A stretch of 36,271 nucleotides of DNA from positions 1 to 36,271 of the forward strand of contig JALAIB010000068.1 in NCBI GenBank assembly GCA_023645945.1. Reading direction: 5' to 3'. This DNA is from Diploschistes diacapsis (taxonomy: Eukaryota). The notes below the pieces were generated by a model that saw nothing but the letters and a program-made list of their open reading frames with translations, did not search any database and was not told where the DNA came from. The position numbers were made by a program, and so were the translations under genes. Each line of letters opens with the position of its first letter. Position 1 is the first letter of the stretch. This document shows, piece by piece, positions 1 through 23,545 of this stretch.

Positions 1-2113
1 ATATTATTACGTGATATAAATATTAAATAATTTAAAAAAATGTATATATAAATTTATATAGGACCTAACTTAGCGTGTATATAGATTAATTATCAGCCTT
101 ACGAGGTTTGTATGAACGGGGTAGGGAGCAGGTGGTGCTCCCGAATCGCCCTGCTTTTAAGCGAGCCTTAAAATTAGAGACTGGCTTAATATTTCTGGTA
201 ATACTTTCTTTCTCATCTTCGATAACGTTGAGAGGATTGATATTTTCCTTCAAGTGTGGCCTTCCAGCAATAAAGGATTGATCCTTATTATAACAACATC
301 TCCTGCAGCGGTAGCAAAGCGTTTAAACTGTGTTATGCATCTTGACCCATTCGCTGCCGACCTCGGCCCCGATGCTTTGTATGCACTTACAGGCTTTGAG
401 GCTTATAATGAGGACGATAAGACCGCCGCCGCCGAGATATGTTATCTTTTCGGTAGGCTCCTACTCGTTATGGTATAAGTGAGCGACTTCACTCGCGATC
501 GAGCTAGCTCATATACGGAATTTGTCGCCTTGTATCGAAAATCTTTAGCCAAGATCCTAGCAAGAGGGGAGGTTCCCCTAGAGTACAACTATATACTGAG
601 TACTGTTTGGGAATTGTCCTTGCATAATCTATTTACGGATGCGAGCACTTTGTAAAAGCTAGTAACATTTTTTGACCCTGATACAATTGAAGAACGCTTC
701 TTGACAACTTCCGCTGCTGGACTTTCTGATGAGAGACTAGAGTTTTTGGATGATGAATTCGAGTAAATACTTCTTTTATCTTCAATTTCTTTTTTAATAT
801 CGCTTTAGTTTCGGTGAGGCTGTCACCGCCTTAGTCCGATCGTCACTAATTAAGTACTTGTCCAATTCAAGGAGCCAGGGTCGAAGACGTTCTCCGTTTA
901 CCGTCTTGTGCAGTCTGCAGTCTTCACTCGGCTCAAGAAGAGTCACGTAGTATTCTTTCACCAATGTGCAGTTGTTTTTCTCTCAATGGCCTTCCCCAAT
1001 ACCTGGAACACGTCTAAATCACAGCAAGGACACAGCTGGAGATCGTGGGAAATATGCAGCAAGGTGCTGCCACATGTGAGTTGGTTGATTGACCTATCCA
1101 AGAAACACCAAATCAAACCTACCGATCCTTGGCCATTTGCAGAGCTCATCTTCCGTACTGGGACGTAAGTAGCGCAGACCTTAAAGTCGTTGCAAGCAAG
1201 GCACTGACACAGCCGCAGATATCTTTGGGAGCGTGAGCAGCCGACCATGGCTCTCAGGTTTTTCGATTATGGTCTTTCTCTCCAAGTTGACCGCACAAGT
1301 ATGGCTTGCAATCAGGCTGTCCGACTTCTGGGCCATATCGCTCTTGACATGGCACAGCCCGTCAGAGCATTGCAGTTATACACTGAGTGCCTAGAATACC
1401 GTCGGAAGCTCGTGGATTCCTCTAACCAGAGCATTGCAAACATTCTTGACTCAATTGCTTGTGCGCAAGTTGAGCTCAATGACACACCAAAGGCGTTCGA
1501 GGCTCTGGAGGAGGCATCGCAGATCCATCACAAGAACGATCCTAAACGGATGAGCCGGACTCTGTTTATCTACTCCATGGCATATCTGAGGGCAGGTGAG
1601 CCGGCAGAATCACTGGAAGCCCTTAAAAAATGCTGGGAACTTCAAGGGCTTACTCAGGAAGAGGTTGAAAAGTCACAGTATCCTAAGCACAGCGGCGACA
1701 TCGTTCTGTTATCACGAATCGAGGCAGCGAAGGGCAATAAAGAGCTATCACTGCAATTGGTATCAAAGACTGTAACAATTCGAAAAGACATCCTTGGCAA
1801 TAAGGGACCCAGGGTGGCTGACTCCATATACATCATGTCGGAGATGCTGAGGGACCAAGACAGGGAGGCGGTGGCAGCTAAGATCCTCAGAGAAATCATC
1901 GACATGGGGTAAGGGATGCCAGAGATGAGACCCTATGTTACAAGGGCGTTTTGGACTCTTGGAAGAATCGCCGAAGGATATAGTAATATGCAGGAAACAG
2001 AGAAACTGAAGGACAGTACGAGATAGGTCAAGAGCGAAATCGAGGCCAGGGAAAGCCATGACGAAGACAGTGATTCTGGGTTTGCCTGCTTAGTTCCGTG
2101 GTTGCTAATTTGA
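1..2113 (+). pseudogene. NB-ARC + TPR fungal NLR-like gene, RIP-damaged, 5' part outside window
   Basis: Manual translation from ~182 gives WLNISGNTFFLIFDNVERIDIFLQVWPSSNKGLILIITT (Walker B / RNBS-B-like segment of NB-ARC). ORF 1247-1912 has TPR-like helices (ALQLYTECLEYRRKLV..IANILDSIA). The frame continues past TAA 1910-1912 and a further TAG to TGA 2111-2113. Introns ~763-808 and ~1166-1218. Stops are consistent with CAA>TAA and CAG>TAG. Confidence 0.8.
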
Positions 2114-4149: not shown

Positions 4150-4661
4150 ACGCCCGACAGCTTTCAAGGTCCTTTGGGTCCCACTCCGACGTCCCATCTA
4201 CCGACGATTTTGCGCCTGGCCTCGACGAGGTCGGCTCGTCAAAGAGGCCACCTTTCTCACCCAAACTGCTAACTTCCTTGTCGTCCGTAGTCTCCCTTCG
4301 AAAATCTTCCGGAGTTATCACAACAGGAATTGGATAGTAAGTATCCTACAATATACTTAGTTAGGATATGGGATATAGAGGGTAAAAGCTCACCATATCT
4401 TTTTGATGAGGAGGCTAACTGGAAACGAAATAACTCGAATATACCGTACACTTCCTCTTCCGGCGAACAAACAACGATATATAGATCTGCGTCATATAAT
4501 TCAACAATCTCATTGCATTTTCTAAGGAGACTGCGTTTGCGTTTTTCGAAATTCTCGTTCGCTCTTCGCCCACCACTCTTTTTTTTTATGCTGCCTTCTC
4601 TTTTATCTCGCTTTTCAAAAGCCTGCAAGGTCGCATGAGCTGCGGATACTGAAGACATCAT
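4150..4661 (-). pseudogene. Small MADS-box (SRF-type) transcription-factor-like gene, frameshifted
   Basis: RRANENFEKRKRSLLRKCNEIVELYDADLYIVV resembles a MADS domain. After a frameshift at ~4470 it reads RRKRKCTVYSS..*PPHQKDM (TAG where W is expected), then an intron (gtgagc..gtag), then DTYYPIPVVITPEDF. Confidence 0.7.
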
Positions 4662-5189
4662 CACTCGAGGGCGACCGTGGCGACGTAAGTTTAGGAGGTA
4701 TCTTTCGCATGGACGGCGGCGATCGTCCCGTAGGTATCAAGGATTTCATTTGTCGTGGCCCTGATATCCTCTCTTCGTAGGGGACCAGAAATAGGCCATT
4801 GACTTCTCTCATACGGGTCACCGATTTGGGAGGCAATGGCAAATCCGCAGCTTTGAATGAGGTGAATGAAATGTCGGGGCCCAAACCGGGGCCTTCGAGA
4901 GAAACATTCAGGTTCGACGGCGTAAGCCAGAGGCACAGATGATAGTAGAGCCAGATTGGGCCCTCTTCTAGGGATCGTTTTCGCTGCAAGGAGAACTTGA
5001 CCACAGTAATTCCATGGTGCATTCAGTGTCTTCCCGATGCCCCGGCGAAATTTGTTTTTCTACCTCATGAATGGTGGACTATCGGTCAACCATAGTGACA
5101 CTGGAGCAACTTGCCTTTTGCGCTCTGCGCGTTGCCGTAACTAGTTGATGCATGGGTTAACGCTATCTTTGTCACTGAGGGCATTTATT

Positions 5190-8875: not shown

Positions 8876-10278
<1,403 letters not shown>

Positions 10279-12610: not shown

Positions 12611-13128
12611 CCCCGATAACTCGGCACTGCGAGAATCTATCGTCGATCCCACCACCCAAGTTTTGGAACCGATTGGCTCGACGACTAAAGTTTCGAAAGA
12701 TCGACAACCTCTTCCGCCCATAAGGCGTCGAGCCCGACAATACCTCCGACTGGACCACACGAGAGTTCTGGAGGCTGGAGGCTGAGTCCGAGCCCGGGCA
12801 GCCGTTGCCGTTGGAGACGGACGATTGGGTTACCACCAGTCAATCAGAGCGTGTGGATGTGACCAAAGAAACCCCTTCGAAAGAGACGTGAGCGTGCACA
12901 TTGGTACCGAAGGGGCACAACGTCTTGACGCTGGCTCAGTCACAATATCCCTGTCACGTTCTACACACGGCTTCCGAATGAGGACAGAACTAGCAAGTCC
13001 TTATTTCTTCTGGGTCTGCCGCATTGAACCCGCAGTCCTCCTCTGCAGCTCCTTTCGGCCATACCTCTTCCCGAACAGTTGCTCGCATCGCTGCCGCAGC
13101 TCTCCACCAGCAAGGCTGTCCATGGCAA

Positions 13129-14900
13129 TCAACGAGGACTTCCACGTGACAACACACTGAGATAAACGTCCTTGACATCTGCCACCCTGCCGTCCACTCC
13201 AGCAACACCGCCACCGGGGCGAACGAAGTAAGCCTGTTTTGCGCGGGATGAACGCAATGATGTACGAGCCCGCTGGGCCTCCACTGCCTCTTGCGCCTCC
13301 CTGGCCTCTCTAGCCTTCCGCGTCTCTTTCGTTGCACGGCGAGGCCGCTTTGGGGGGACATCTTCGTCGAGAAGGACATGGGGTTGGGTGAACGACCGAG
13401 ACCGTTTTCGATAAGGTACTCCTTGGGTAACAGTGCAAGGCTCAGATCCAACAGCGACTTCTGTCGTCATGGGAGACGACGATAGTGGATGTCGTAGAAA
13501 GGCTCCGATGTTTTCTGTGATTCCGCATATCAGAATCAGGGATGACGTTCAACAGCGCGGTCATATCACTTACCAGAGTGGCAGTCGCCAGCCGATGCGT
13601 GAACACCCTGAGATTTACCTCCCCGGTCTTCGTCTCTAGACCGTCGATTTCTTGCCGGGCCTGGAAAATGGGTCCATTCCCAATCTCTCTCTTCGAAAGG
13701 CGGGCAATATCATCTCCTGCGGCTTCTGCAGCCTGCTCATCGTCCGTGACGCCGTCGTCCGTAGCTACCCGTGGCTCTTCCTGCAAGACTTGACGTGGAA
13801 TAGAGCCTACTGTCGTCTCCCTCTCGGTGCAATCAAGTATAGTCGACTGTGCCGCTTTTTGCTTCGACTTACGCAAGCCGAAGGTCTCCTCGTACTCGGC
13901 AAAGACGTCGTGAATTCGGCCAACAGACGCCGGTGCATCCGAATCAACACCGCTGCCACTGCAATCGTTATCACCATCATCTCCAGCTAGAGCACGGGCT
14001 TGGACAGCGTCATCATTGTGTGGTTCATTGCCTTCTTCTTGCTCGTGATCTACACGGTTGTCCGTGTTGTACTTCGCTGAGTAGTCTGGGGCGTGCTTAG
14101 CATCATCCGTGCGTGCGGCACATCCTCCAGAAAATTTTGGGGACCCATCGCCGGGATATGCCGGATCCACGGCTTCGCAGGTAGGCCTTTCGTCATCAAG
14201 ACTGGTGCCGTCGTGGTGCGTGTCAACCGACGGGTCATCTTCCAGCACAATCGGGTGGTCTAGAACAATACGTTAGCATGCACGGTCCCGGTATGCTCCG
14301 CGCGATGTGGGATCTTCTTCACTCACCTCGGCTGGCACCGAGTTGTATGCTTGTGACAGTTGCGGGGACAAGATTGGCAACCTCCTCGCTGTCACCCTCG
14401 CGACCACGCTCTCCGCCCGTCCTATCGACTGTGGCTGGCGATGCGAAGACCTTGCGGCCGAACTCGTCGCCACCTCCAAACGCTGGGTTGTTCTGCCTAA
14501 AGATCTCATGGAGAGATGGAAGGTCACTGGCTTCGCTTTTACAGTCAACGTCATCGTCGTGTTTGTCGCCTTCGTCGCCGGCCTCGATTTTGTCGCTGCA
14601 TGTCGCGCCACTACTACGGTCTCGAGCAACTCGGATGTCGCTGTTGTCGGGACTATGACACATCGGCTCCAAAAGTTCCCGCAGCACCAGACACGCTCGA
14701 GGGGTGTCCTGGTGAGAGGCAGTCAAGTCCACGAAATCGACGAAATCCCCTGTGCCAACAGAATTTGTCTGATCAGGAGATTTGGAGCTTTGTCTGCTCG
14801 ACGCACAAGTGGAAGACCCAACTGTGGGAGATTTGCTGAAAGTATGGTTGTCGAAGCGCGGTGCATTTCCTCGAGGTTGATATGCGATGAAGGCCGCCAT
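13129..14900 (-). pseudogene. Large acidic, low-complexity hypothetical protein gene (two exons, frameshift near 13540)
   Basis: ORF 14319-14900 (MAAFIAYQP..DLPSLHEIF) splices (gtgag ~14326 .. ctaac..ctag ~14260) to DHPIVLEDD of ORF 13442-14248 and ends in the basic KRPRRATKE module. No catalytic domain recognised. Confidence 0.45.
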
Positions 14901-16640
14901 GGCTGGAAAGCAATGAAAAATGAGCCAAAGCGGTCAACAGTGGTTCAGAACGATTATGAAGGAGATTGGATTGACGGCTGAAGATGAGAGAGCAACTGAA
15001 GCCATACATATAGAAGGTCGGCACTGCCCAAGGAGCACCCCAGTTTTGACTTCCCAGAAGGCCCAGGTGCAAGTTTTCACAACTGCCGAATTGACGCCCT
15101 CATCCGCAAACAACTCTTCTGCTGATGGTTTCCCAGGGGCCCCTTGCGGCCTGCATAAGGAAGATCATCGCGGCGGCCAAGTGGAGCAGGTCATACCACC
15201 AAAACGCGACAAGGGACAAGGGCTTTCGGTATCCTGAGTGAGGCATTGACCGCGACGACGGTAGTCTCAGTATGAGGGTGGCACAGGGTGCCGGCTCATT
15301 CTCCCCGGTCCCAAGGGTTCCAGGACGATGAGAAGCATCTTTGGAGCACCGCGAAAGCTCCTTCCAGTGTTTTTTGGGGGGGACGATCTTGCAGGCCCTG
15401 TTCGAAACCGATGGGCAACCTCAAAAGCACACGCCCGCCCACCATTGAGACCATCCGTTGCGGACGTGAATCGACGTCCGCGTTCGTCCGAGCCAAATTG
15501 TGTCTTGGGAGGCCGATTTTTGTTTTCCCCCCTGCGTCCTGCTGTCAGCGAGCGCCAATTTTGGCAATCACCGTACTGCATCCGGCTCAAATGGGACAGC
15601 AACAGCGAATCCACTTTGTCACACGCTGGCGTATGCCCCCATCGCAGGATGGCGACCCTGTTCCCCCGAGCGCTAGGGGCCAACCCCGAGAACTCAGCCC
15701 CGATCGACAGTGCAAATTCGAGACGGAGCATAGGCAGCAACGCGGGCGCACTGCCGATCAACTCGTGCGGTATTTTTGTGATTGGACGCACCAGGTGCGG
15801 CACTCAGCTTGCTGTGCCGGCCTGTGCCAACAACACCAGCGGCGCTTCACAGACTGCCGTGTCATCCTCCACTCAGTGTTCGGCACCGACGGAAGCAAGA
15901 GGGCTGAATGCCAACGCACGGCGACTCAGGCTGTTTTTGACGCTCTCCCCAACTCTTTCGCAAATCTGGAACAAACGCCAGAAAATCGACTTCAAGAAAA
16001 TCATCCAGGCGAGGCGGCACAGGGAGGCGCACCCGTGGTGAGACTCCCTCAGGATCCTCGGTGGAGGTGTGGATGGACGGGATCAGCTGAGGCCTGCAGG
16101 TTGTGCGGCCGGTGGAGCCAAATGTGTCACGCAGGAGTTGGAGGCCTCGAGGGGGCCGAAGAGGGCTGCGTCGAGGGGAGCAAAGGCCGCGAGGATCGAG
16201 GATTGGGAAGGTGATCGGAGTGCACTGGGAGATGCAAGGCGGATTCCGAAGCAGCTAGTGGAGAATCGAGGGGGGCCTGATGCGGCAGAGCAGGATGCAG
16301 GCGGCAGTGCGTGACGCACGACGGGTGCATCACGGCGACGGAGGTGAGAAAGAAAACAGGTTGATGGAAAGAGAATTGGGAAGAGGGAAGGGGACGAGGG
16401 TTCTTATAGATGTCAAAAGCGGCGGCGCACCCGGCCCCGGACCATGCCCGAAGCGGCAGGCCGCCTAAACCGCAGGCGGATTTCCCGGCAACATCTTTAC
16501 TACTATAGTATCTGTTTAGGTCCTAACCGAATCCGTACCCAGACTGTTACCGTGTACAGTGGAACCACCATAACATTAACCATGAGAGTTACAGTCAGCT
16601 TTTATCAATCTTATCATCACCCGACATTCTCCAGACTGCG

Positions 16641-17490
16641 CTAGTTATTGCATCCACGTTGCATTATACTTCTGCTCCTGCTCATCAATGATACTCGAAT
16701 GGCTTCGAAATCAAGACAGTCATGCGGTGTGCCCCGGTCCATCTCCGTTGACGCATGCAGGCGCTCGCCCAGGAATGTCTAGGTGAAGCACCTTCAAGAG
16801 CGAAAGGAGCTCCGCATGGGATGCCCAGCATAAGATACTCGAAACAATGGTCTATGTGTGCGTCCCACATCGGCTCACTATAGCCTTCAGTGAGCGTGGC
16901 CATGCCCTTGATCTGCCAATAGTGATAGCGAATCAAGTTATACACGCCATTAGCCGTTGGGCTGACGAGCTACAAGAGGAAAGCCTTACAAGACACTGCG
17001 TCTGGTGCATAATTGACACCTCGTAGAAGTCGGGCGGAGGCAGCGATGCCATATTAAGGTAGTGAAAGGAAAGCACAGTGCCTTGGGGCACACCGAGTGC
17101 TCCTGGTCGGCAATATACATCGCATCGTGGCCTGCTTGGCAGCTTGCCTTTCAGTGTGCTTTATGTGTGATTCACCAGGCAGCAGGGCGTCCCAGTGATG
17201 ATGAGTATCGTTCGAAAGCCTAATGTACCGGTCGTCGGGTGCGAAGACTCGTCTAACCCGGTCGAATACTGCGGCTGGAATAGTGTCGATGGGCGTCCGT
17301 CCTTGTCTGGCGTCAGTCGTACAAACACCATCAAGGCACATATCCAGCCCAGACTTAGCATAACTAGGAGGGCACGCAGAGAGGCTGGCTGTGGTTTGTA
17401 AGAAATCGGCGCTTGATCGAGATCGCCACCGAGCGACAAGATCTCATCGCTCTGTTTCTCTCGTAGAAGGGTTTTGGAATACATGTCCAT
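16641..17490 (-). pseudogene. UstYa/DUF3328 oxidase homolog #1
   Basis: N-terminal TM (LRALLVMLSLGWICALMVFV), FAPDDRY..HWDALLP, motif 1 YEVSIMHQTQCL (~16993-17007), motif 2 HIDHCFEYL (16844-16858), HDCLDFEAI. At least three frameshifts and an acceptor changed from TAG to TAT. Confidence 0.85.
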
Positions 17491-18414
17491 GGCGTGTGCG
17501 GACTCTGGAGCAATTGGAAAAGTGCAGACGAGATTTGGATGAGAGGTCAAGAACAAAGACCTTATCGAGCACGGCCAGAGAAAGATTCGTGCCGTCAGCA
17601 CACACATACTTTGGCAGTCCGGCACCTTTCCACCAACAGGTCCGAGCAGCAAGGTCTTGGCCGACGAGGCGAACAACGAAGGCGGTATTGCACTACCCCA
17701 TTCTCATAAAGTCACGTCCACAAGGTTTACGGTGAGGTTGACTGAGTGATCTGTGATCCAAAGCTAGTAAACTAAGACGTACACGCAGCATTGCAGCCGG
17801 ATGCAGCGGCAGCTGAACGGCGATCAAAGACGGCTCGGGACTGTTGGCCGCCTAGGTCTTCAGCGGTCGAAGTATATCTGAGGTATACTCGAGGTGGATT
17901 CAGATATGTATTCATATCTGGAGTGGAGAAGGTATGCATTGAGTTTCAAGACCGCTGATGACCGTGCATTTATATGCTCGTATGGCTTAGCGGTGTCCGC
18001 CACCTTATGCATCTCCGCTACCTAATTTCAGATATACTTACTCCATTGGGGTCACCTCTGCCTACAAACACATATACAGAGTCTATCCCCTAGTAGACGT
18101 CAGCGCTTACGCAGCCAACCCATTAGTTTCGCCTGCAAATAATAGAGTTCGATCTAGCGTCTATCATGGAGCAGGCCGCATTCTACATATGTTAGCGCGC
18201 ACAGTGCAGCTATCACTCTGAGGTTGCAGATGGTGAACATGGCTAGAGCAGATAGCCTATTCCATGCGATTGCTTACAGTTACTTTATCCTAGTATTGTA
18301 ACATAACGCAATGACACGACACACAGGAAGACCAGCCATTAATGGCTCAGCTCTTCTATGTCAGCTTCGTTCTTCCCACTTTTTTACACTGTCACAGAAG
18401 TCAACAATACTAAG

Positions 18415-19275
18415 ATGGGTGTTCCAATCTTCCAGAATCGCACCCATCCGCGGCCGGCTATCGTCGTGTTAACGGCGAAGATAAAAATGTCGGCCGCCAC
18501 CGGAGCCGTCTCTCAAGTGATACTATGGTCTACTGCTTCATCGCAGCGCTAGTTGGAGCGGCTGTCGGAGCAGGGGCTGAATTGAATAATTGTGCACCCG
18601 CTTCATCGTCAACACCACCCTTCATCCCAGAGCACGTCTTCATGCCTTCCATTCCCACTCTGTTCAAGCCGGATGAACGATAAATTGGCTGGACCGAGTT
18701 CGTGGACGACGACTGGAACCGGCTGCTCGGACGCAAGTCATGTTTGACGTCCGCGGACGGTTTTCGCTCATAAGTGTCAGCTACCGAGGCTGGCTATTTG
18801 CCCAAAGACGCCACGGTGGGAATGCTGGAATGCCTTGAACGGCCGAACCATTATGGCGAACAACCAAACGAGACTGACTTCTATCATATCTCGAATCCGC
18901 ATCAACTGCACTGTCTGGTATGATCGAGTAAGCCGATGTATCGACTAGACTAACCGGAGAAGAACGTCCTCCGTGTCCGCAATTTGCTACTCCGAGCTGC
19001 TAGCTAACTACAATGGCCCACCGCCCGACATTTCTGAAGACGATGCAGCCAACACGCGTTATCACTCGCGGCACCGTCACGAGTATCTTCGCCAAACCAC
19101 CATGTGCGGCGTCTCATTGGCCATTGACCAACGGCCCGCTGGATACCCAACGGAGCTGAGAGAGGACCGTTGGGGCAATCAACTTGGCTGGGGCACGCGC
19201 CGTGAGTGCATCAATTGGGATGGCCTTACCACATGGCAGGGTGAGCAGCTGCAGAAGTGGGAGCAGACGCAGTAG
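18415..19275 (+). pseudogene. UstYa/DUF3328 oxidase homolog #2
   Basis: TM (MVYCFIAALVGAAVGAG), FKPDER*IGW..DWNRLL (TAA 18681-18683), FYHISNPHQLHCL (18900-18914), intron, HSRHRHEYLRQTTMC (19063-19077), GWGTRRECINWDGL. Frameshifts present. Confidence 0.87.
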
Positions 19276-19539
19276 ATATCGGAGTCCGATAAAACCGATC
19301 TAACAATGCACACTCAACCTCGGGGACTTAGATGAGTCGAATAGAAATATGTTACAAAACGCGAATGGGATACCTTTTTGTATGGATTAACCCCAAAATT
19401 GTTCTTTCGATTAAAAAGCCTCGCCTTGCTTCGCATAGTCAAGGACGGTGCGTTGGCAAACTTACGCATATTGTATATTCCTCGAATAATGCCAAATTGA
19501 CGTTGGGTTTCATTGTCCATGTGATCGTCTGTTTTGGGT

Positions 19540-20373
19540 TGGCAACACTGCTTAACCCAGTACTTTGTCATCCAGTCCTTGACGGCCCATAAATCAGTAC
19601 ACACGTGCGCCACGCCATCTTCGAAGGAGTCGGGCTCACTGGTCGATGCCAACAGCCTCGTATCAAACCTGCACATAAGCGTTTGCCGAATCTGGTCCAG
19701 GCAATGAACAAAGATGGTGCCAGGGCTGCGTCTGGTTCGTACCATCGCGGAAATGGTGGAGAACGTTGCAAAATGACGGCCTGTACACGCTCAGCTGGCC
19801 CGTCGGCCGGAGACAAGCATTCACTTCCCGTGCAGCGTAGCGTATGCATCTCCGCAACGATATGGACGCCGTGATGAGGTCGCAATGGGTCTGGCAAGGC
19901 GCGCGGCAGCCCCGCTGCAGGAGTTTATGGAGTCCGGGAGTGAGAGGACGCCCGTTGCCCTCTGTTACTACCGTCAGCTGAAGGCCAAATGTGCCGGGAA
20001 GGTTTCCGGCAGACTGGAAAGAGTTGGTCGACGTGTGCTTTGTCGTCGCCCCTCGAGGTTGAAGGCCGTTTCCAGATAGAACGGCTGGCGTACCAGTGAT
20101 GCGGGAATGACTGGATGTCGTCAGGCAAGATAACGCGACAACAGTGAGACCCGACCCACGAGAGCTAAGTTTGTCCACTTGTGGCTAGCTGATGTTCGGT
20201 GTCGGTACTTCTTGTCGTCTTTGATGGCTCGCAAACCGCATCGCATTCGCTGCCACGAGCAGCAACAGGGGGATGGATACCGGCCAGGACCACCAGCGCC
20301 GAGAACATACGCTGCTGCGCGGGTTTCTGTCATATGTGTACTCGGCGAACGACTCTTCCTCCTCCCTCGCCAT
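19540..20373 (-). pseudogene. UstYa/DUF3328 oxidase homolog #3
   Basis: MAREEEESFAEY..WWSWPVSIPLLLLVAANA (TM), motif 1 VAEMHTLRC (19832-19846), motif 2 HL(+1 nt)VHCLDQIRQTLMCRFD (~19701-19716), DGVAHVCTDLWAVKDW. In-frame stops present; 3' end approximate. Confidence 0.82.
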
Positions 20374-20700
20374 TGTGCTGCTGGCCGTCGGCCAGGCTGT
20401 CACTGCCCCAGGCAAAGTCGCTTCCTTGATCAAAGGTTTCACAAGCTAACGTTGATAGTGGCGGCTCAGGGTATGTTTTGCCCTCTGGGGAATAGGTTAA
20501 GCTGCTGACGTGATGGAGCCGCTGAAGGCACTGAGATGGTCGACGGCGGCAAACTCATCTCGCGCGAGGCTTTCTCTGGCGTAGCTACGGCTACGACGAG
20601 AAGAAGAAGCGTGGGGAGGAAGAAACGGAGCTTCTGGATGGCGGCAAGTTCATCCCGCCCGAGGGCTCTGGAGCGCAGCTACGGCTACTATGAGGAGTAG
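20360..20700 (+). pseudogene. Kex2-processed repeat (KEP) RiPP precursor peptide gene, three exons, start codon lost
   Basis: Signal-peptide-like exon SLAIVLLAVGQAVTAP (to 20411); intron 20412-20458 (GC donor, gctaac branch, TAG); 12-nt exon 20459-20470; intron 20471-20518 (gtatgt, gctgac, GAG acceptor). Then two repeats, TEMVDGGKLISRE..RSYGYDE-KKKR and GEEETELLDGGKFIPPE..RSYGYYEE*, each with an indel just before RSYGY. Confidence 0.72.
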
Positions 20701-21537
20701 ACGGATATCACCACATGCAGAGGCCCTTCTTAGTCGGATTTTGACTTGATACTTGTCCAATAACAAGAAGAACCCTCGTTGGTCAGACCAGTTTTCTCTC
20801 TTGTTGGTGAAGCGCCGAAGAAGCCGATCAGGGGCCATGGGCGAAGAGATTGAAACGTGATGATCGCGGATGTAAAAGCGTATAGACAATGATATGCGGC
20901 TGCTATAGATTCTACCCTTGAACAGACATTGACGCTTATTCATTTGCTTATTCATTGTCCAGTCCATCCTTGTCTAGTTGTTCGTATGCCTCAGCTGCTT
21001 ATTACTTTAAGTCCTCACAAGTGAAAAGGGGGGCCCTTGCTTATAATCGGAGCACGGACGATGCTGAAGCAGCAGCAACGTTATAAAGATAGTAAGTCGG
21101 GCGCTGCTGTTTTTTATTGATAGGCGTTATAAGAGTCCCACCATGCTAAGGATTTTTTAACCTAAACCCCCCCCGGAAGAAAGACGTTATATCAAACACT
21201 ATTTTGGGAGGCAAAAAAACCATTTAGCTCGGAAGCACTAATGTCTATCAGAGGGTACTAATCACTGTACGAGAGATGCTATGCTGATACTCTAGAAGTT
21301 CGCTTTGGAACAAGGTGGAGGCGCACCGTCCCGGTTAGCCGGCTCAGCAGGGTGGTCCAAGCACAGAAACGCGAGGTTCGTTAGTTGCAAGGTATACATC
21401 AACCAAGACATGTCTTGTCTGGTTCGAGGTTTTGTGACTGTGATGTCGCCTCGGACAGGCTCCAGCCTGCGAATTTGGACGTCCAGGCTGCCCCTCCGTC
21501 AACGGCATCCAGCGAATTGACTCTCACACTGCCGCCC

Positions 21538-22668
21538 ATGCTGTCCCTCGTCCGCCTGCGCAATGCCTTTGGGCGCCGCAAGCATTACCAGCCGTTTTGG
21601 CAGACGTACGAGGACAAAGATGCATCAGAAGGCATCACCTACGAGCCGCAGCCAGAGATGCGCTACAGCGTCGTGCTCAAGGGAGCATGCCTTGCGCTGA
21701 CCTTTGCGACCATTCTGCTTGGCAGCTTACTCTGGTCAGAGCAGGGCGATATGGACCGCACGCGCCTCTTGCATTCAAGCTCCTACTGTAAGTGTTGACC
21801 GCCTGAAGGATATGGCGGTGGTGGATGCTGATACGGAGGGGAAAGGCTCCCTTTCTTGACGCAATTCCTGCTGCTTTGCAAGAGAGCCGGTTCAATGGCT
21901 CGACTCACTAGCCTTCGCCTTACCGACGCCCACCCAGTCTCGTAGTGGCCGTAGCACTCACGGACGATAAGCCGGTCCCATGCGGCGTCCACGGTGTTTT
22001 GTAACGGCTGGATAGGCTCATGTAGGCCAGTTCGTCGCCTGGACATCAATCTCACCCCAGACCAGTTCCAGCGTATTGGCCGACATATCGAGACGGCAGC
22101 AACTAACGCGCCTGAGCGTGGTGGCAGCCTTTCCGCCCAGTCAGAGTTCTCACATCAGGTATGTTGCCTTGTCTGCCGATACTGTTGATAAGAACAACGC
22201 GATACTGACAGCCGTATGCAGTCGCACTGTGTGGTACACTAGCAAGACACCCCATCCATTCTCTCTCTTTGAGGCTAAGCGTGTGCAGAACCTCCTCCGT
22301 AAGGCATCTCACTTTAAGTTCGATTAATTACAAACCCTGTGATCCAGACTTTCAGGTCCGTGACGAAATTTTCAAGATGCATATTGGTAAGAAACGGCCG
22401 AACAATGATGCAGCGCAAGACTAATGGCGTTTGCAGATCGCTGCGTGGAGATGCTCCGTCAAAACATTATGTACAATGCCAACCTCGAGGTTGTCACCGT
22501 CCATTGGATTGAGCAGCGCAGCCAGTCCTGCCGGGCTTCAGTACGGAGCGCACATGCCGTGATTTCGAGAGCATCCTGGAATGGGCCAAAGACCATCAAT
22601 TGCCAGAGGGAACGCCGTTGGTGCCTTTCAAGCCGTCAGGCGCTAAAGCTTTGGTGGCCCCGCCATAA
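21538..22668 (+). pseudogene. UstYa/DUF3328 oxidase homolog #4 (CctO/CctR-like subtype)
   Basis: TM (GACLALTFATILLGSLLW), EFSHQVCCL (22153-22167), NLLRKASHF, HI|DRCVEMLRQNIMYNAN..VVTVHWIE, PGFSTERTCRDFESILEWAKDH, stop 22666-22668. Frameshifts near 22327 and 22530. Confidence 0.87.
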
Positions 22669-23545
22669 GACAGAAATACAGTTGAAGGAACTGCGGTGGA
22701 CATTAGCCACTGAGTTCAGAACAACCCTTTGCGTGTCTAGGAGAGTATGGCCGCTACAGAGGCAAATATTGGATGCTATACCTCATCAGCCAAGAAAAGT
22801 ATGTTTGCAACATTGTGCCTATTTGATTGACTTGCTTGAGGGGGAAGCGGTTTACCCAGATGGGTCCAGTGTTCGAGACTCTGTTTGTAATCTATCCGAT
22901 ACATACGGATGTAGGGTAAAAAGCGAAACTTCTGGACTTTTTGTGTCAGTCTGCAGATTTTAGCAGTTCGTGCAGCTAATTAGCGCAACTCTATCGATCA
23001 GCCCTAGACCTCGCGACCACTGTGGAGGCGTTGCGGCGGCTAAGGCCATATATAGGAGCGGTTCTGACTCAGAAGTTCAGAACCACTGGCGTGCTCGGTG
23101 CTTCGAGTACTGACCAGGGTAAGCACCAGATACCGCCTGCGGTACTCCGAGTATTATAACCCGTTGTAACAGTGTTCAGAACGTTCCAACTGGATAACTG
23201 ACTGACTACCCGCAGACACAGGTCACATGGGGGGTAAAAATATCGGTTATAAAGTGGAGTATAAGGAGCATGGTGTACGGTGTATGGGAGATATTGTACC
23301 GAGGCTGGTGTGATTCGATTGCGTGATGTCTTCAGAAAATAAAATGTCTACTGCCAAGCCTAGGGGTTTAATGACTTATCTTCGTAGCAAAACCACACTG
23401 GTAGCCTTTATTTATGCTCAATCGATAAGCACTTCCGTTTTCAGCACACTTCGGGATATGCTGCTACTGGTCCCGCTCCATATTCCTTACCCGCTAGCAG
23501 CTAGTTGTTCACATCTTGAAGAAGGAGTGGCTGAGACCCTCGTTT

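What the first reader, a model, noticed from the sequence alone, without database searches (positions are those of the whole stretch)
20360..20700. Hidden RiPP precursor: signal peptide + two Kex2-delimited repeats ending in SYGY
Seen: this gene is absent from the ORF track. Splicing two short introns around a 12-nt microexon joins SLAIVLLAVGQAVTAP-VAAQ in frame to AAEGTEMVDGGKLISREAFSG. The DNA then holds two copies of a unit TE(M/L)(V/L)DGGK(L/F)I(S/P)(R/P)E-x3/4-RSYGY(D/Y)E, separated by KKKR and an acidic spacer GEEE. Known: dikaritin precursors (UstA, PhomA, AprA) have a signal peptide, acidic repeats, KR sites and Tyr-containing cores, and lie next to UstYa genes. Inference: this was the cluster's precursor. 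Its core ends in SYGY and matches none of the cores I recall (ustiloxin YAIG, phomopsin YVIPID, asperipin-2a FYYTGY), so intact orthologs may make an undescribed Tyr-crosslinked cyclic peptide.
Basis: partly seen in the sequence, partly recalled or inferred. Interest (0 to 1): 0.9.

Follow-up and report, generated by a model that had tools for sequence, protein, structure and literature searches.

The report
Decayed fungal peptide-precursor gene beside UstYa relics
This is the broken remnant of a small secreted repeat-peptide gene, lying among four damaged UstYa-type oxidase genes in a lichen-associated fungus, and it has intact but unstudied relatives in other fungi whose repeats end in AYVHGSYGYD-KR.

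Summary
The two-unit DNA repeat at 20524-20701 is real: alignment score 56 against 14.3 +/- 2.2 for shuffles. It lies between UstYa (DUF3328) genes, four of them within 16.6-22.7 kb. It is not an intact hidden gene.

- **Frames:** in each unit the DGGK half and the SYGY half lie in different frames.
- **Start:** the signal-peptide exon has no start codon. Contigs of two close relatives leave the window at 20364/20365 and carry an in-frame ATG there.
- **Drift:** one relative differs in length by one base at both frame breaks.
- **Enzymes:** all four UstYa-like genes carry a defective HxxHC copper motif, and one also has a frameshift.

A scan of 1.84 billion proteins gave one hit, a repeat protein with AYVHGSYGYDDKKKR units. 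That hit led to two annotated 84-85 aa fungal proteins and one metagenome contig. Each has a signal peptide and repeats ending AAYVHGSYGYDKR. The X-bridged window reading aligns collinearly with them.

Verdict: a pseudogenised dikaritin-type precursor in a decayed cluster, from a family I found in no paper. Whether intact family members lie next to UstYa genes could not be tested.

The parts
20364..20365 (+). Breakpoint. Contigs of relatives X2 and X3 leave the window here on both sides, so the window lacks a block. The block is at least 375 nt by one X2 contig, and at least 228 and 245 nt by two X3 contigs. It holds the precursor's ATG.
   Evidence: tables 7 and 8. An independent Logan contig of X1, probably the same sample, spans the junction with 0 differences.
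20366..20411 (+). Remnant of exon 1: the hydrophobic and C-terminal part of a signal peptide (LAIVLLAVGQAVTAP), with no start codon of its own.
   Evidence: It aligns with the signal peptides of P0003 and L001.
20412..20458 (+). Putative intron 1 (47 nt): GC donor, CTAAC branch site, TAG acceptor.
   Evidence: From sequence only, no RNA evidence.
20459..20470 (+). Putative 12-nt microexon (VAAQ). With it the reading gives TAPVAAQ, which matches APVA of P0003. Skipping it also keeps the frame.
20471..20518 (+). Putative intron 2 (48 nt): GTATGT donor, CTGAC branch site, GAG acceptor.
   Evidence: From sequence only.
20530..20612 (+). Repeat unit 1. TEMVDGGKLISREAFSG is in frame A and RSYGYDEKKKR in frame B. 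The frame break lies within 20577-20583.
20613..20624 (+). Acidic spacer GEEE (frame B).
   Evidence: The same ...KKKRGEE junction is in P0002.
20625..20700 (+). Repeat unit 2. TELLDGGKFIPPEGSG is in frame B and RSYGYYEE plus TAG in frame A. The frame break lies within 20670-20676.
16641..17703 (-). UstYa-like gene U0. The first motif reads HQTQC and the second HIDHC. The C-terminal piece appears to lie in another frame.
   Evidence: Pfam PF11807, E 9.2e-5, profile positions 138-194. ORF translations. The frame change is my reading and was not confirmed by Pfam.
18520..19275 (+). UstYa-like gene U1. The first motif HQLHC is intact and the second reads HSRHR (Cys replaced).
   Evidence: Pfam PF11807, E 1.1e-9, profile positions 146-219. 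Translations.
19536..20150 (-). UstYa-like gene U2, divergent from the precursor remnant. The motifs read HTLRC and IFVHC.
   Evidence: Pfam PF11807, E 7.6e-7, profile positions 168-218. Translations.
21538..22668 (+). UstYa-like gene U3. The motifs read HQVCC and FADRC. There is a frameshift near 22515-22530.
   Evidence: Pfam PF11807 hits in two frames: 22409-22963 on profile positions 166-196 (E 4.6e-4) and 22513-22668 on positions 199-220 (E 1.1e-4). About 6 nt lie between them, too few for an intron. X2 has only one indel in 21284-22569, at 22368.

Best explanation
The stretch is the pseudogene of a small secreted Kex2-processed repeat protein. That protein was once the precursor peptide of a UstYa/DUF3328-dependent (dikaritin-type) RiPP cluster, and the whole cluster is decayed in this lichen-associated fungus and in its close relatives.

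The ancestral gene had a signal peptide, one or two short introns, and two units of about 25-30 residues. Each unit ended in a Tyr-rich core (...SYGY-D/Y-E), with KKKR and an acidic spacer between them.

By analogy with ustiloxin, phomopsin and asperipin-2a, the precursor would enter the ER. Kex2 would cut it after KR, and the membrane-bound binuclear-copper UstYa oxidases would cross-link a Tyr side chain to another residue.

Here that no longer happens. A deletion removed the start codon, both units are frame-broken, and all four neighbouring UstYa genes have lost copper-binding residues.

Shown: the repeat, the frame breaks, the breakpoint, the UstYa hits and motif defects, and the homologous family. 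Inferred: Kex2 processing, Tyr cross-linking, and the past link between precursor and oxidases.
For: Repeat and breaks:
- The repeat is real and its halves are spaced 95 and 94 nt.
- The motif pairs are split over two frames.
- Differences between the units in the DGGK half fall 4/2/6 on codon positions 1/2/3 of that half's frame, with three synonymous codon pairs. This is my count on the D1 copies. It fits past coding use of that frame.

Homologues:
- An exhaustive phmmer of the 31-aa frame-B piece against 1,835,955,588 proteins gave 1 hit at E <= 0.001. It is P0002 (E 4.1e-5, three stretches), a protein with AYVHGSYGYDDK(V/K)KR repeats.
- Searching with P0002 gave 3 proteins at E <= 0.01 among 233 candidates: the query itself, P0003 and P0004. 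The latter two are annotated hypothetical proteins of a Gnomoniopsis sp. and a Xylariaceae sp. Each has a signal peptide plus two repeats ending AAYVHGSYGYDKR.
- The metagenome contig L001 carries the same architecture.
- The window reading with X at both breaks aligns collinearly from signal peptide to second unit. Scores: 61 with P0003, 54 with L001 and 81 with P0002, each reached by 0 of 2000 shuffles; 43 with P0004, reached by 10 of 2000.

Loss of the start:
- Contigs of X2 and X3 leave the window at 20364/20365.
- Their loose ends carry an ATG five codons upstream, in frame with the retained hydrophobic stretch (table 7).

Cluster context and decay:
- There are four PF11807 hits within 6 kb.
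- U3 is frame-shifted.
- Each of the four genes has at least one defective HxxHC motif.
- Ala substitutions of those His and Cys residues abolish activity in CctR (PMC12435403, passages read).
- X2 differs in length by one base at 20571 and at 20663, the two break regions (table 4). So the frame is not conserved among relatives about 96-98% identical.
Against: - The match to the family rests on a short word (SYGYD) plus a charged, low-complexity junction (KKKRGEE).
- The family's invariant AYVHG block is absent here, and the DGGK(L/F)I half has no counterpart in the relatives.
- The N-terminal part alone aligns only weakly: 26 of 2000 shuffles reach the score with P0003, 52 of 2000 with L001, and 1563 of 2000 with P0004.
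- Frame A is open across the whole last exon (63 codons), and an in-frame ATG exists at 20273. A product therefore cannot be excluded.
- The UstYa exon structures could not be checked against close homologues, because that search found none. Apart from U3, 'decay' rests on motif defects and on my own reading of frames.
- The indel table for X2 was cut: 12 of the 21 gap letters of that contig were listed. X2's full frame is therefore not known.
- No RNA run was available.
Confidence: 0.7

Rival explanations
1. It is a live gene read in frame A only. Translation would start at the ATG at 20273, or use another upstream exon, and give a protein with a long N-terminal extension, one KKR site and a single C-terminal core ...ERSYGYYEE.
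For: Frame A is open from 20509 to the TAG at 20700, because the two shifts add up to three. The frame upstream of the hydrophobic stretch is open back to 20225 and holds an ATG. Frame A also happens to contain RKKR.
Against: - The 31 residues before the hydrophobic stretch are charged and unlike a signal-peptide n-region.
- X2 and X3 have a different, canonical start at the breakpoint.
- X2 has single-base length differences inside this ORF at 20571 and 20663. An ORF under selection would not tolerate them.
- In frame A the DNA repeat is read in two different frames, so the duplicated peptide is lost.
Confidence: 0.08
2. It is the relic of a Kex2-processed secreted signalling or pheromone-like peptide gene that was never a substrate of the UstYa enzymes. 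The neighbourhood would then be coincidental.
For: - In the survey of 7878 Kex2-processed repeat proteins, only 22% had DUF3328 genes within 15 genes (PMC7329392, passages read).
- No context could be obtained for P0003, P0004, P0002 or L001.
- The Atlas feature search put a mating-factor-alpha cluster among weak look-alikes of P0003. Its score of 0.81 is below the level that counts as more than a lead.
Against: - The remnant lies directly between two UstYa-like genes, with two more within 4 kb.
- DUF3328 genes peak at the position next to such precursor genes when they are present at all. Tyr-containing repeats are enriched among the linked ones, 65.6% against 38.2% (PMC7329392).
- The core here and in the family holds two to three Tyr.
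Confidence: 0.15
3. It is a chance duplication of non-coding DNA between UstYa genes. The peptide-like features come from composition and from picking among frames.
For: - Three frames must be combined to read the units.
- Tandem Repeats Finder reported nothing here.
- An unrelated non-coding 88-nt tandem duplication exists elsewhere in the window.
Against: - The only hit in 1.84 billion proteins is itself a KR-delimited SYGYD repeat protein.
- The alignment is collinear with three further family members, signal-peptide region included.
- Differences between the units fall in a codon-position pattern (my count).
- The relatives carry an in-frame ATG exactly where a signal peptide needs one.
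Confidence: 0.05

Closest known systems
Dikaritin precursors (UstA of ustiloxin, PhomA of phomopsin, AprA of asperipin-2a). Core sequences are as quoted in PMC7329392 or recalled.
   Same: - Signal peptide followed by tandem repeats that end in a Tyr-containing core and a KR site.
- Location among several UstYa/DUF3328 genes. PMC7329392 reports five such genes for phomopsin, two for ustiloxin and one for asperipin-2a. Four lie here.
   Different: - The core is ...SYGY(D/Y)E here and AYVHGSYGYD in relatives. It matches none of YAIG/YVIG, YVIP... or FYYTGY.
- There are only two units.
- No tyrosinase or methyltransferase was found by Pfam on ORFs of 65 aa or more between 10 and 27 kb.
- The gene and all four oxidase genes are damaged, so no product is expected.
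The AYVHGSYGYD repeat proteins found here. P0003 is hypothetical protein N0V82_007392 of Gnomoniopsis sp. IMI 355080. P0004 is GGR57DRAFT_507883 of Xylariaceae sp. FL1272. P0002 comes from a Logan contig and L001 is a metagenome contig.
   Same: - The order is signal peptide with an AP(V/L)A end, an acidic T(D/E)-led spacer of about 17-18 residues, SYGY-D, KR, then a second unit.
- The KKKRGEE junction is identical to that of P0002.
   Different: - The window lacks the invariant AYVHG block before SYGY.
- It has DGGK(L/F)IxxE in its spacer.
- It has introns in the signal-peptide region, whereas L001 is read without any.
- It is frame-broken and has no start.
Kex2-processed repeat proteins in general (PMC7329392; PMC6339444, seen only in the listing).
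   Same: Secreted, with repeats delimited by dibasic sites.
   Different: Most are not linked to DUF3328 genes and are thought to give linear peptides. This one sits inside a UstYa gene group.
UstYa clusters of lichen-forming fungi (PMC12048977; abstract and sections 8 and 22 read).
   Same: UstYa homologues with HxxHC motifs in fungi from lichens.
   Different: That survey found no repeat precursor in its two clans. Here a precursor remnant is visible, but it is dead, and the fungus's place in the lichen (mycobiont or associate) is not known.

Membership tests
Dikaritin-type (UstYa-dependent) RiPP precursor | N-terminal signal peptide with a start codon | tested here: not met
   Only the hydrophobic and C-terminal part remains (20366-20411). 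The nearest in-frame ATG is 31 codons upstream behind a charged stretch. Relatives X2 and X3 carry an in-frame ATG in the block that the window lacks. No signal-peptide predictor was available.
Dikaritin-type (UstYa-dependent) RiPP precursor | Tandem repeats, each holding a core peptide, in one open frame | tested here: not met
   Two DNA units exist, but each is split between two frames.
Dikaritin-type (UstYa-dependent) RiPP precursor | Dibasic (KR) Kex2 sites delimiting the repeats | tested here: met
   KKKR follows SYGYDE in frame B. Relatives have DKR or DDK(V/K)KR. Cleavage itself was not tested.
Dikaritin-type (UstYa-dependent) RiPP precursor | Aromatic (Tyr) residue in the core for ether cross-linking | tested here: met
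   The cores read SYGYDE and SYGYYEE. Cross-linking cannot be tested with these tools.
Dikaritin-type (UstYa-dependent) RiPP precursor | DUF3328/UstYa gene(s) close by | tested here: met
   PF11807 hits lie at 16685-16969(-), 18949-19275(+), 19314-19790(-), and 22409-22963 / 22513-22668(+).
Dikaritin-type (UstYa-dependent) RiPP precursor | Neighbouring UstYa enzymes with an intact HxxHC(x)nHxxHC copper site | tested here: not met
   The motifs read U0 HQTQC/HIDHC, U1 HQLHC/HSRHR, U2 HTLRC/IFVHC and U3 HQVCC/FADRC. The second-motif positions were checked against Pfam profile coordinates. U3 is also frame-shifted. The motif requirement comes from PMC12435403.
Dikaritin-type (UstYa-dependent) RiPP precursor | Transcribed, and a modified peptide detected | not testable with these tools
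   No RNA run was listed among the 5 runs returned.
AYVHGSYGYD secreted repeat-protein family (P0002, P0003, P0004, L001) | Invariant block AYVHGSYGYD at the end of each repeat (invariant columns of alignment A2) | tested here: not met
   The window keeps SYGYD / SYGYY only. The five positions before it read differently and hold the frame breaks.
AYVHGSYGYD secreted repeat-protein family (P0002, P0003, P0004, L001) | Collinear architecture: signal peptide, acidic spacer, core, KR, second unit | tested here: met
   X-bridged read-through against P0003, L001 and P0002: 0 of 2000 shuffles reach the score. Against P0004: 10 of 2000. phmmer E 4.1e-5 to P0002.

The most novel reading that the evidence does not exclude
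The window's relic and its intact relatives (P0003, P0004, L001, P0002) mark an undescribed family of UstYa-dependent fungal RiPPs. Their core AYVHGSYGYD, with three Tyr and one His, would be cross-linked by several DUF3328 copper oxidases into a new polycyclic peptide. The family would span Sordariomycetes and lichen- or rock-associated ascomycetes and would have been lost by decay in this lineage. The relic would then be the first visible dikaritin-type precursor in a fungus from a lichen, where a 2025 survey found none.
Probability: 0.35. Interest if true: 0.6.

Novelty: new member of a known kind. Interest (0 to 1): 0.35.

Why it matters
**For this window:** little, because the gene and its cluster are dead.

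**What the follow-up adds:**
- It turned up a conserved secreted repeat-peptide family, with a core ending AYVHGSYGYD-KR, that I found in no paper text searched.
- The relic gives the only evidence available here that this family was once paired with multiple UstYa oxidases.
- If the intact members in Gnomoniopsis and Xylariaceae also sit beside DUF3328 genes, they are ready candidates for a new Tyr-cross-linked cyclic peptide.

**A practical caution:** UstYa clusters in lichen-associated fungi can be pseudogene relics. Counting UstYa hits as biosynthetic potential overestimates what the fungus can make.

Tried and rejected
- **Whole genome of the window:** not held.
- **Earlier findings of this scan:** nothing by place, by sequence or by words that bears on this finding.
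- **RNA evidence:** no RNA holder was listed among the 5 runs returned, so the splice junctions and expression could not be tested.
- **Tandem Repeats Finder on 20200-20900:** 0 rows. The two-copy diverged repeat is below its threshold. The repeat finder and a shuffle test did show it.
- **The search for homologous proteins with the 52-aa frame-B ORF, longer proteins:** 24 candidates, none at E <= 1.
- **The search for homologous proteins with the U2 UstYa piece:** 3 candidates, none at E <= 0.001. No close UstYa homologue was therefore available to model exons.
- **tblastn of the UstYa pieces against the window:** only weak cross-matches between paralogues, the best at E 0.014. The paralogues are too far apart to help.
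- **Pfam at E <= 10 on further UstYa-region ORFs:** no new UstYa hits. One call failed on a coordinate slip and was corrected.
- **Solved structures for U1:** no relative, best E 0.31.
- **The listing of cluster members for P0002-P0004:** The sources of P0002 are unknown beyond 'Logan'.
- **Metagenome scan:** 17 pattern matches and 2 confirmed. L001 is only 1087 nt, so it gives no context. L002 has a single AYVHGSYG-like word in a short ORF without repeats or KR, and I set it aside.
- **ESM Atlas for P0003:** best score 0.86, below the level that is more than a lead.
- **Ding et al. 2016 by DOI:** not held.
- **Supplements of PMC7329392:** they hold accession tables, and 0 occurrences of GSYGY or SYGYD were found in the 3 files.
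- **A single 107-nt intron (20412-20518) instead of two introns with a microexon:** also in frame. It was not rejected, but the microexon reading fits P0003 better (APVA).
Full report
**What is there**

The window is fungal DNA. It has short ORFs broken by introns, and Pfam finds fungal secreted hydrolases and UstYa domains. A public run labelled 'lichen metagenome' holds every sampled word of 19300-23000 and may be its source. A run of a coded organism (X2) holds 27% of the words and a rock-metagenome run (X3) holds 17%.

At 20524-20701 there are two direct DNA units. The repeat finder gives a 46-nt pair (74% identical, spacing 95) and a 29-nt pair (83% identical, spacing 94). A local alignment of the two units scores 56, against 14.3 +/- 2.2 (max 28) for 2000 shuffles. 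Only 2 of 722 adjacent block pairs elsewhere in the window score as high, and both belong to an unrelated 88-nt tandem duplication at 28009-28178. In the six-frame translation of the whole window, SYGY and DGGK each occur twice, and only here. The repeat is therefore real.

The spacings 95 and 94 mean that the two halves of a unit cannot share a frame in both units. In fact they share a frame in neither.
- DGGK of unit 1 and SYGY of unit 2 lie in the frame of ORF 20509-20700.
- SYGY-DE-KKKR-GEEE-TELLDGGKFIPPE lies in the frame of ORF 20535-20693.
- The two shifts add up to three, so the first frame stays open to the TAG at 20700, but it reads the duplicated DNA in two different frames.

The splice model joins in frame and has good branch sites (CTAAC, CTGAC) and one good donor (GTATGT). 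Intron 1 has a GC donor and intron 2 a GAG acceptor. Skipping the 12-nt microexon also keeps the frame. The 'signal peptide' is only LAIVLLAVGQAVTAP. The nearest in-frame ATG (20273) lies 31 codons upstream behind a charged stretch.

**Relatives' DNA**

Contigs of X1, X2 and X3 were laid on 19200-23100.
- **X1** matches without a difference. This is an independent assembly of what is probably the same sample, and it spans 19200-21153.
- **Breakpoint:** X2 and X3 contigs both leave the window at 20364/20365, from both sides. One X2 contig has 375 further letters before the junction. Two X3 contigs have 228 and 245 further letters.
- **Lost start:** the last letters of the right-hand loose ends in both runs contain an ATG five codons before the junction, in frame with the retained hydrophobic stretch. 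The simplest reading is a deletion in the window's lineage that took the start codon and the upstream region.
- **Indels at the breaks:** X2 also differs in length by one base at 20571 and at 20663, which are the two break regions. In X2 the halves of unit 2 would share a frame and those of unit 1 still would not. This holds if none of the unlisted indels falls there; 12 of that contig's 21 gap letters were listed.
- **X3** shows the window's state at both places.

Single-base indels inside a 180-nt 'exon', between genomes that differ at about 2-4% of sites, mean the stretch is not under coding constraint.

**Is it a former gene at all?**

The differences between the two units in the DGGK half fall 4/2/6 on codon positions 1/2/3 of that half's frame, with three synonymous pairs. 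This is my count on the copies shown.

The 31-residue piece RSYGYDEKKKRGEEETELLDGGKFIPPEGSG was scored against 1,835,955,588 proteins. Exactly one reached E <= 0.001: P0002 (E 4.1e-5, three stretches). It is a 149-aa call on a Logan contig that ends in at least three AYVHGSYGYDDK(V/K)KR units joined by acidic spacers.

Searching with that repeat region gave 3 proteins at E <= 0.01 among 233 candidates: the query itself, P0003 and P0004.
- P0003 is 85 aa, a hypothetical protein of Gnomoniopsis sp. IMI 355080.
- P0004 is 84 aa, from Xylariaceae sp. FL1272.
- Each has a typical signal peptide (MAFK...) followed by two repeats, TDDTL...SAAYVHGSYGYDKR.

A scan of metagenome contigs gave 17 pattern matches, of which 2 were confirmed. 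L001 (1087 nt) has the same gene with two repeats in frame and a third behind a frame break. L002 has one similar word only, and I set it aside.

A reading of the window's pieces with X at both breaks aligns collinearly with these proteins, from the end of the signal peptide (TAPVA... against AAPVA...) through SYGYD and KR into the second unit. The scores were 61 (P0003), 54 (L001) and 81 (P0002), each reached by 0 of 2000 shuffles, and 43 (P0004), reached by 10 of 2000.

Against this:
- The N-terminal part alone is weak: 26, 52 and 1563 of 2000 shuffles reach its score.
- The family's invariant AYVHG is not present in the window.
- The DGGK(L/F)I spacer has no counterpart in the relatives.

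**Surroundings**

Pfam UstYa (PF11807) matches four places:
- 16685-16969(-), E 9.2e-5.
- 18949-19275(+), E 1.1e-9.
- 19314-19790(-), E 7.6e-7.
- On the + strand, 22409-22963 (profile positions 166-196, E 4.6e-4) and 22513-22668 in another frame (positions 199-220, E 1.1e-4).

The last two hits are about 6 nt apart, too close for an intron, so that gene is frame-shifted. X2 shows only one indel in 21284-22569, at 22368, and therefore seems to share the shift.

The family's HxxHC(x)nHxxHC motif binds two coppers, and Ala mutants of its His and Cys residues are inactive in CctR (PMC12435403, passages). Here the four genes read HQTQC/HIDHC, HQLHC/HSRHR, HTLRC/IFVHC and HQVCC/FADRC. I anchored the second motif to the Pfam coordinates. 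Each gene therefore has at least one defect.

I could not check the exon structures against close homologues, because that search found none. Apart from the frameshift, 'decay' of the enzymes is therefore an inference from motifs. No tyrosinase, methyltransferase or transporter domain was found on ORFs of 65 aa or more between 10 and 27 kb.

**Mechanism**

By analogy with ustiloxin, phomopsin and asperipin-2a, summarised in PMC7329392 (passages), the ancestral protein would have entered the secretory pathway. Kex2 would have cut it after KR. UstYa oxidases would have cross-linked it through a Tyr side chain. In that survey DUF3328 genes are most frequent right next to such precursor genes. Tyr-containing repeats are also enriched among the linked ones, 65.6% against 38.2%. 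These steps are inferred. Nothing here shows processing or chemistry, and in this organism the pathway is almost certainly dead.

**Comparison with what is known, and novelty**

The architecture is that of a dikaritin precursor, but the core is not one of the described ones. The strings HGSYGY, SYGYDKR, YVHGSY, RSYGYD and GSYGYD occur in none of about 8.4 million full texts searched. GSYGY and SYGYD also do not occur in the three supplementary tables of PMC7329392, which hold accessions rather than sequences. Other papers' supplements, and papers outside the library, were not seen. The 2025 survey of lichen-forming fungi found UstYa homologues but no repeat precursor in its two conserved clans (PMC12048977; abstract and sections 8 and 22).

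So the window holds a new but dead member of a known kind, and it points to an intact family that has not been studied. The key open point is whether the intact members lie beside DUF3328 genes. I could not test it, because no flanking DNA was reachable for P0002, P0003, P0004 or L001.

**Verdict**

- Interest is modest for the window itself. It is higher for the family it led to.

Noticed in passing
window 28009-28178: An 88-nt unit is present in 1.9 tandem copies (89% matches, no indels) in a stretch without Pfam hits, between the GH25 and GH12 genes.
   Followed up: partly
L001 400-605: In the metagenome relative the third AAYVHGSYGYDKR repeat lies behind a stop and in another frame than repeats 1-2. 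It still differs from them mostly at synonymous positions. This is either a recent frame break or a sequencing error.
   Followed up: partly
window 26791-27342(-), 29388-29762(+), 31481-32650(+): A group of secreted-hydrolase genes lies 6-12 kb downstream: GH25 lysozyme-like (E 1.1e-33), GH12 (E 1.6e-35) and an S10 serine carboxypeptidase (E 3.2e-50). An S10 enzyme could trim C-terminal K/R after Kex2, but nothing links it to the relic cluster.
   Followed up: no
window 12800-16500: A GC-richer stretch (55-58%) has long overlapping stop-free frames on both strands, up to 312 codons, and no Pfam hit on any of them.
   Followed up: no
window 22409-22963(+): After the frameshift in the fourth UstYa-like gene, the old frame stays open for about 145 more codons with no family match. 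This looks like a chance open frame.
   Followed up: no
window 1208-1912(+), 4269-4736(-), 8876-9586(-), 34007-35365(-): Other genes in the window: a TPR protein, an SRF-type (MADS-box) transcription factor fragment, a protein kinase exon, and an enoyl-CoA hydratase/isomerase (ECH_2, E 1.6e-111).
   Followed up: no
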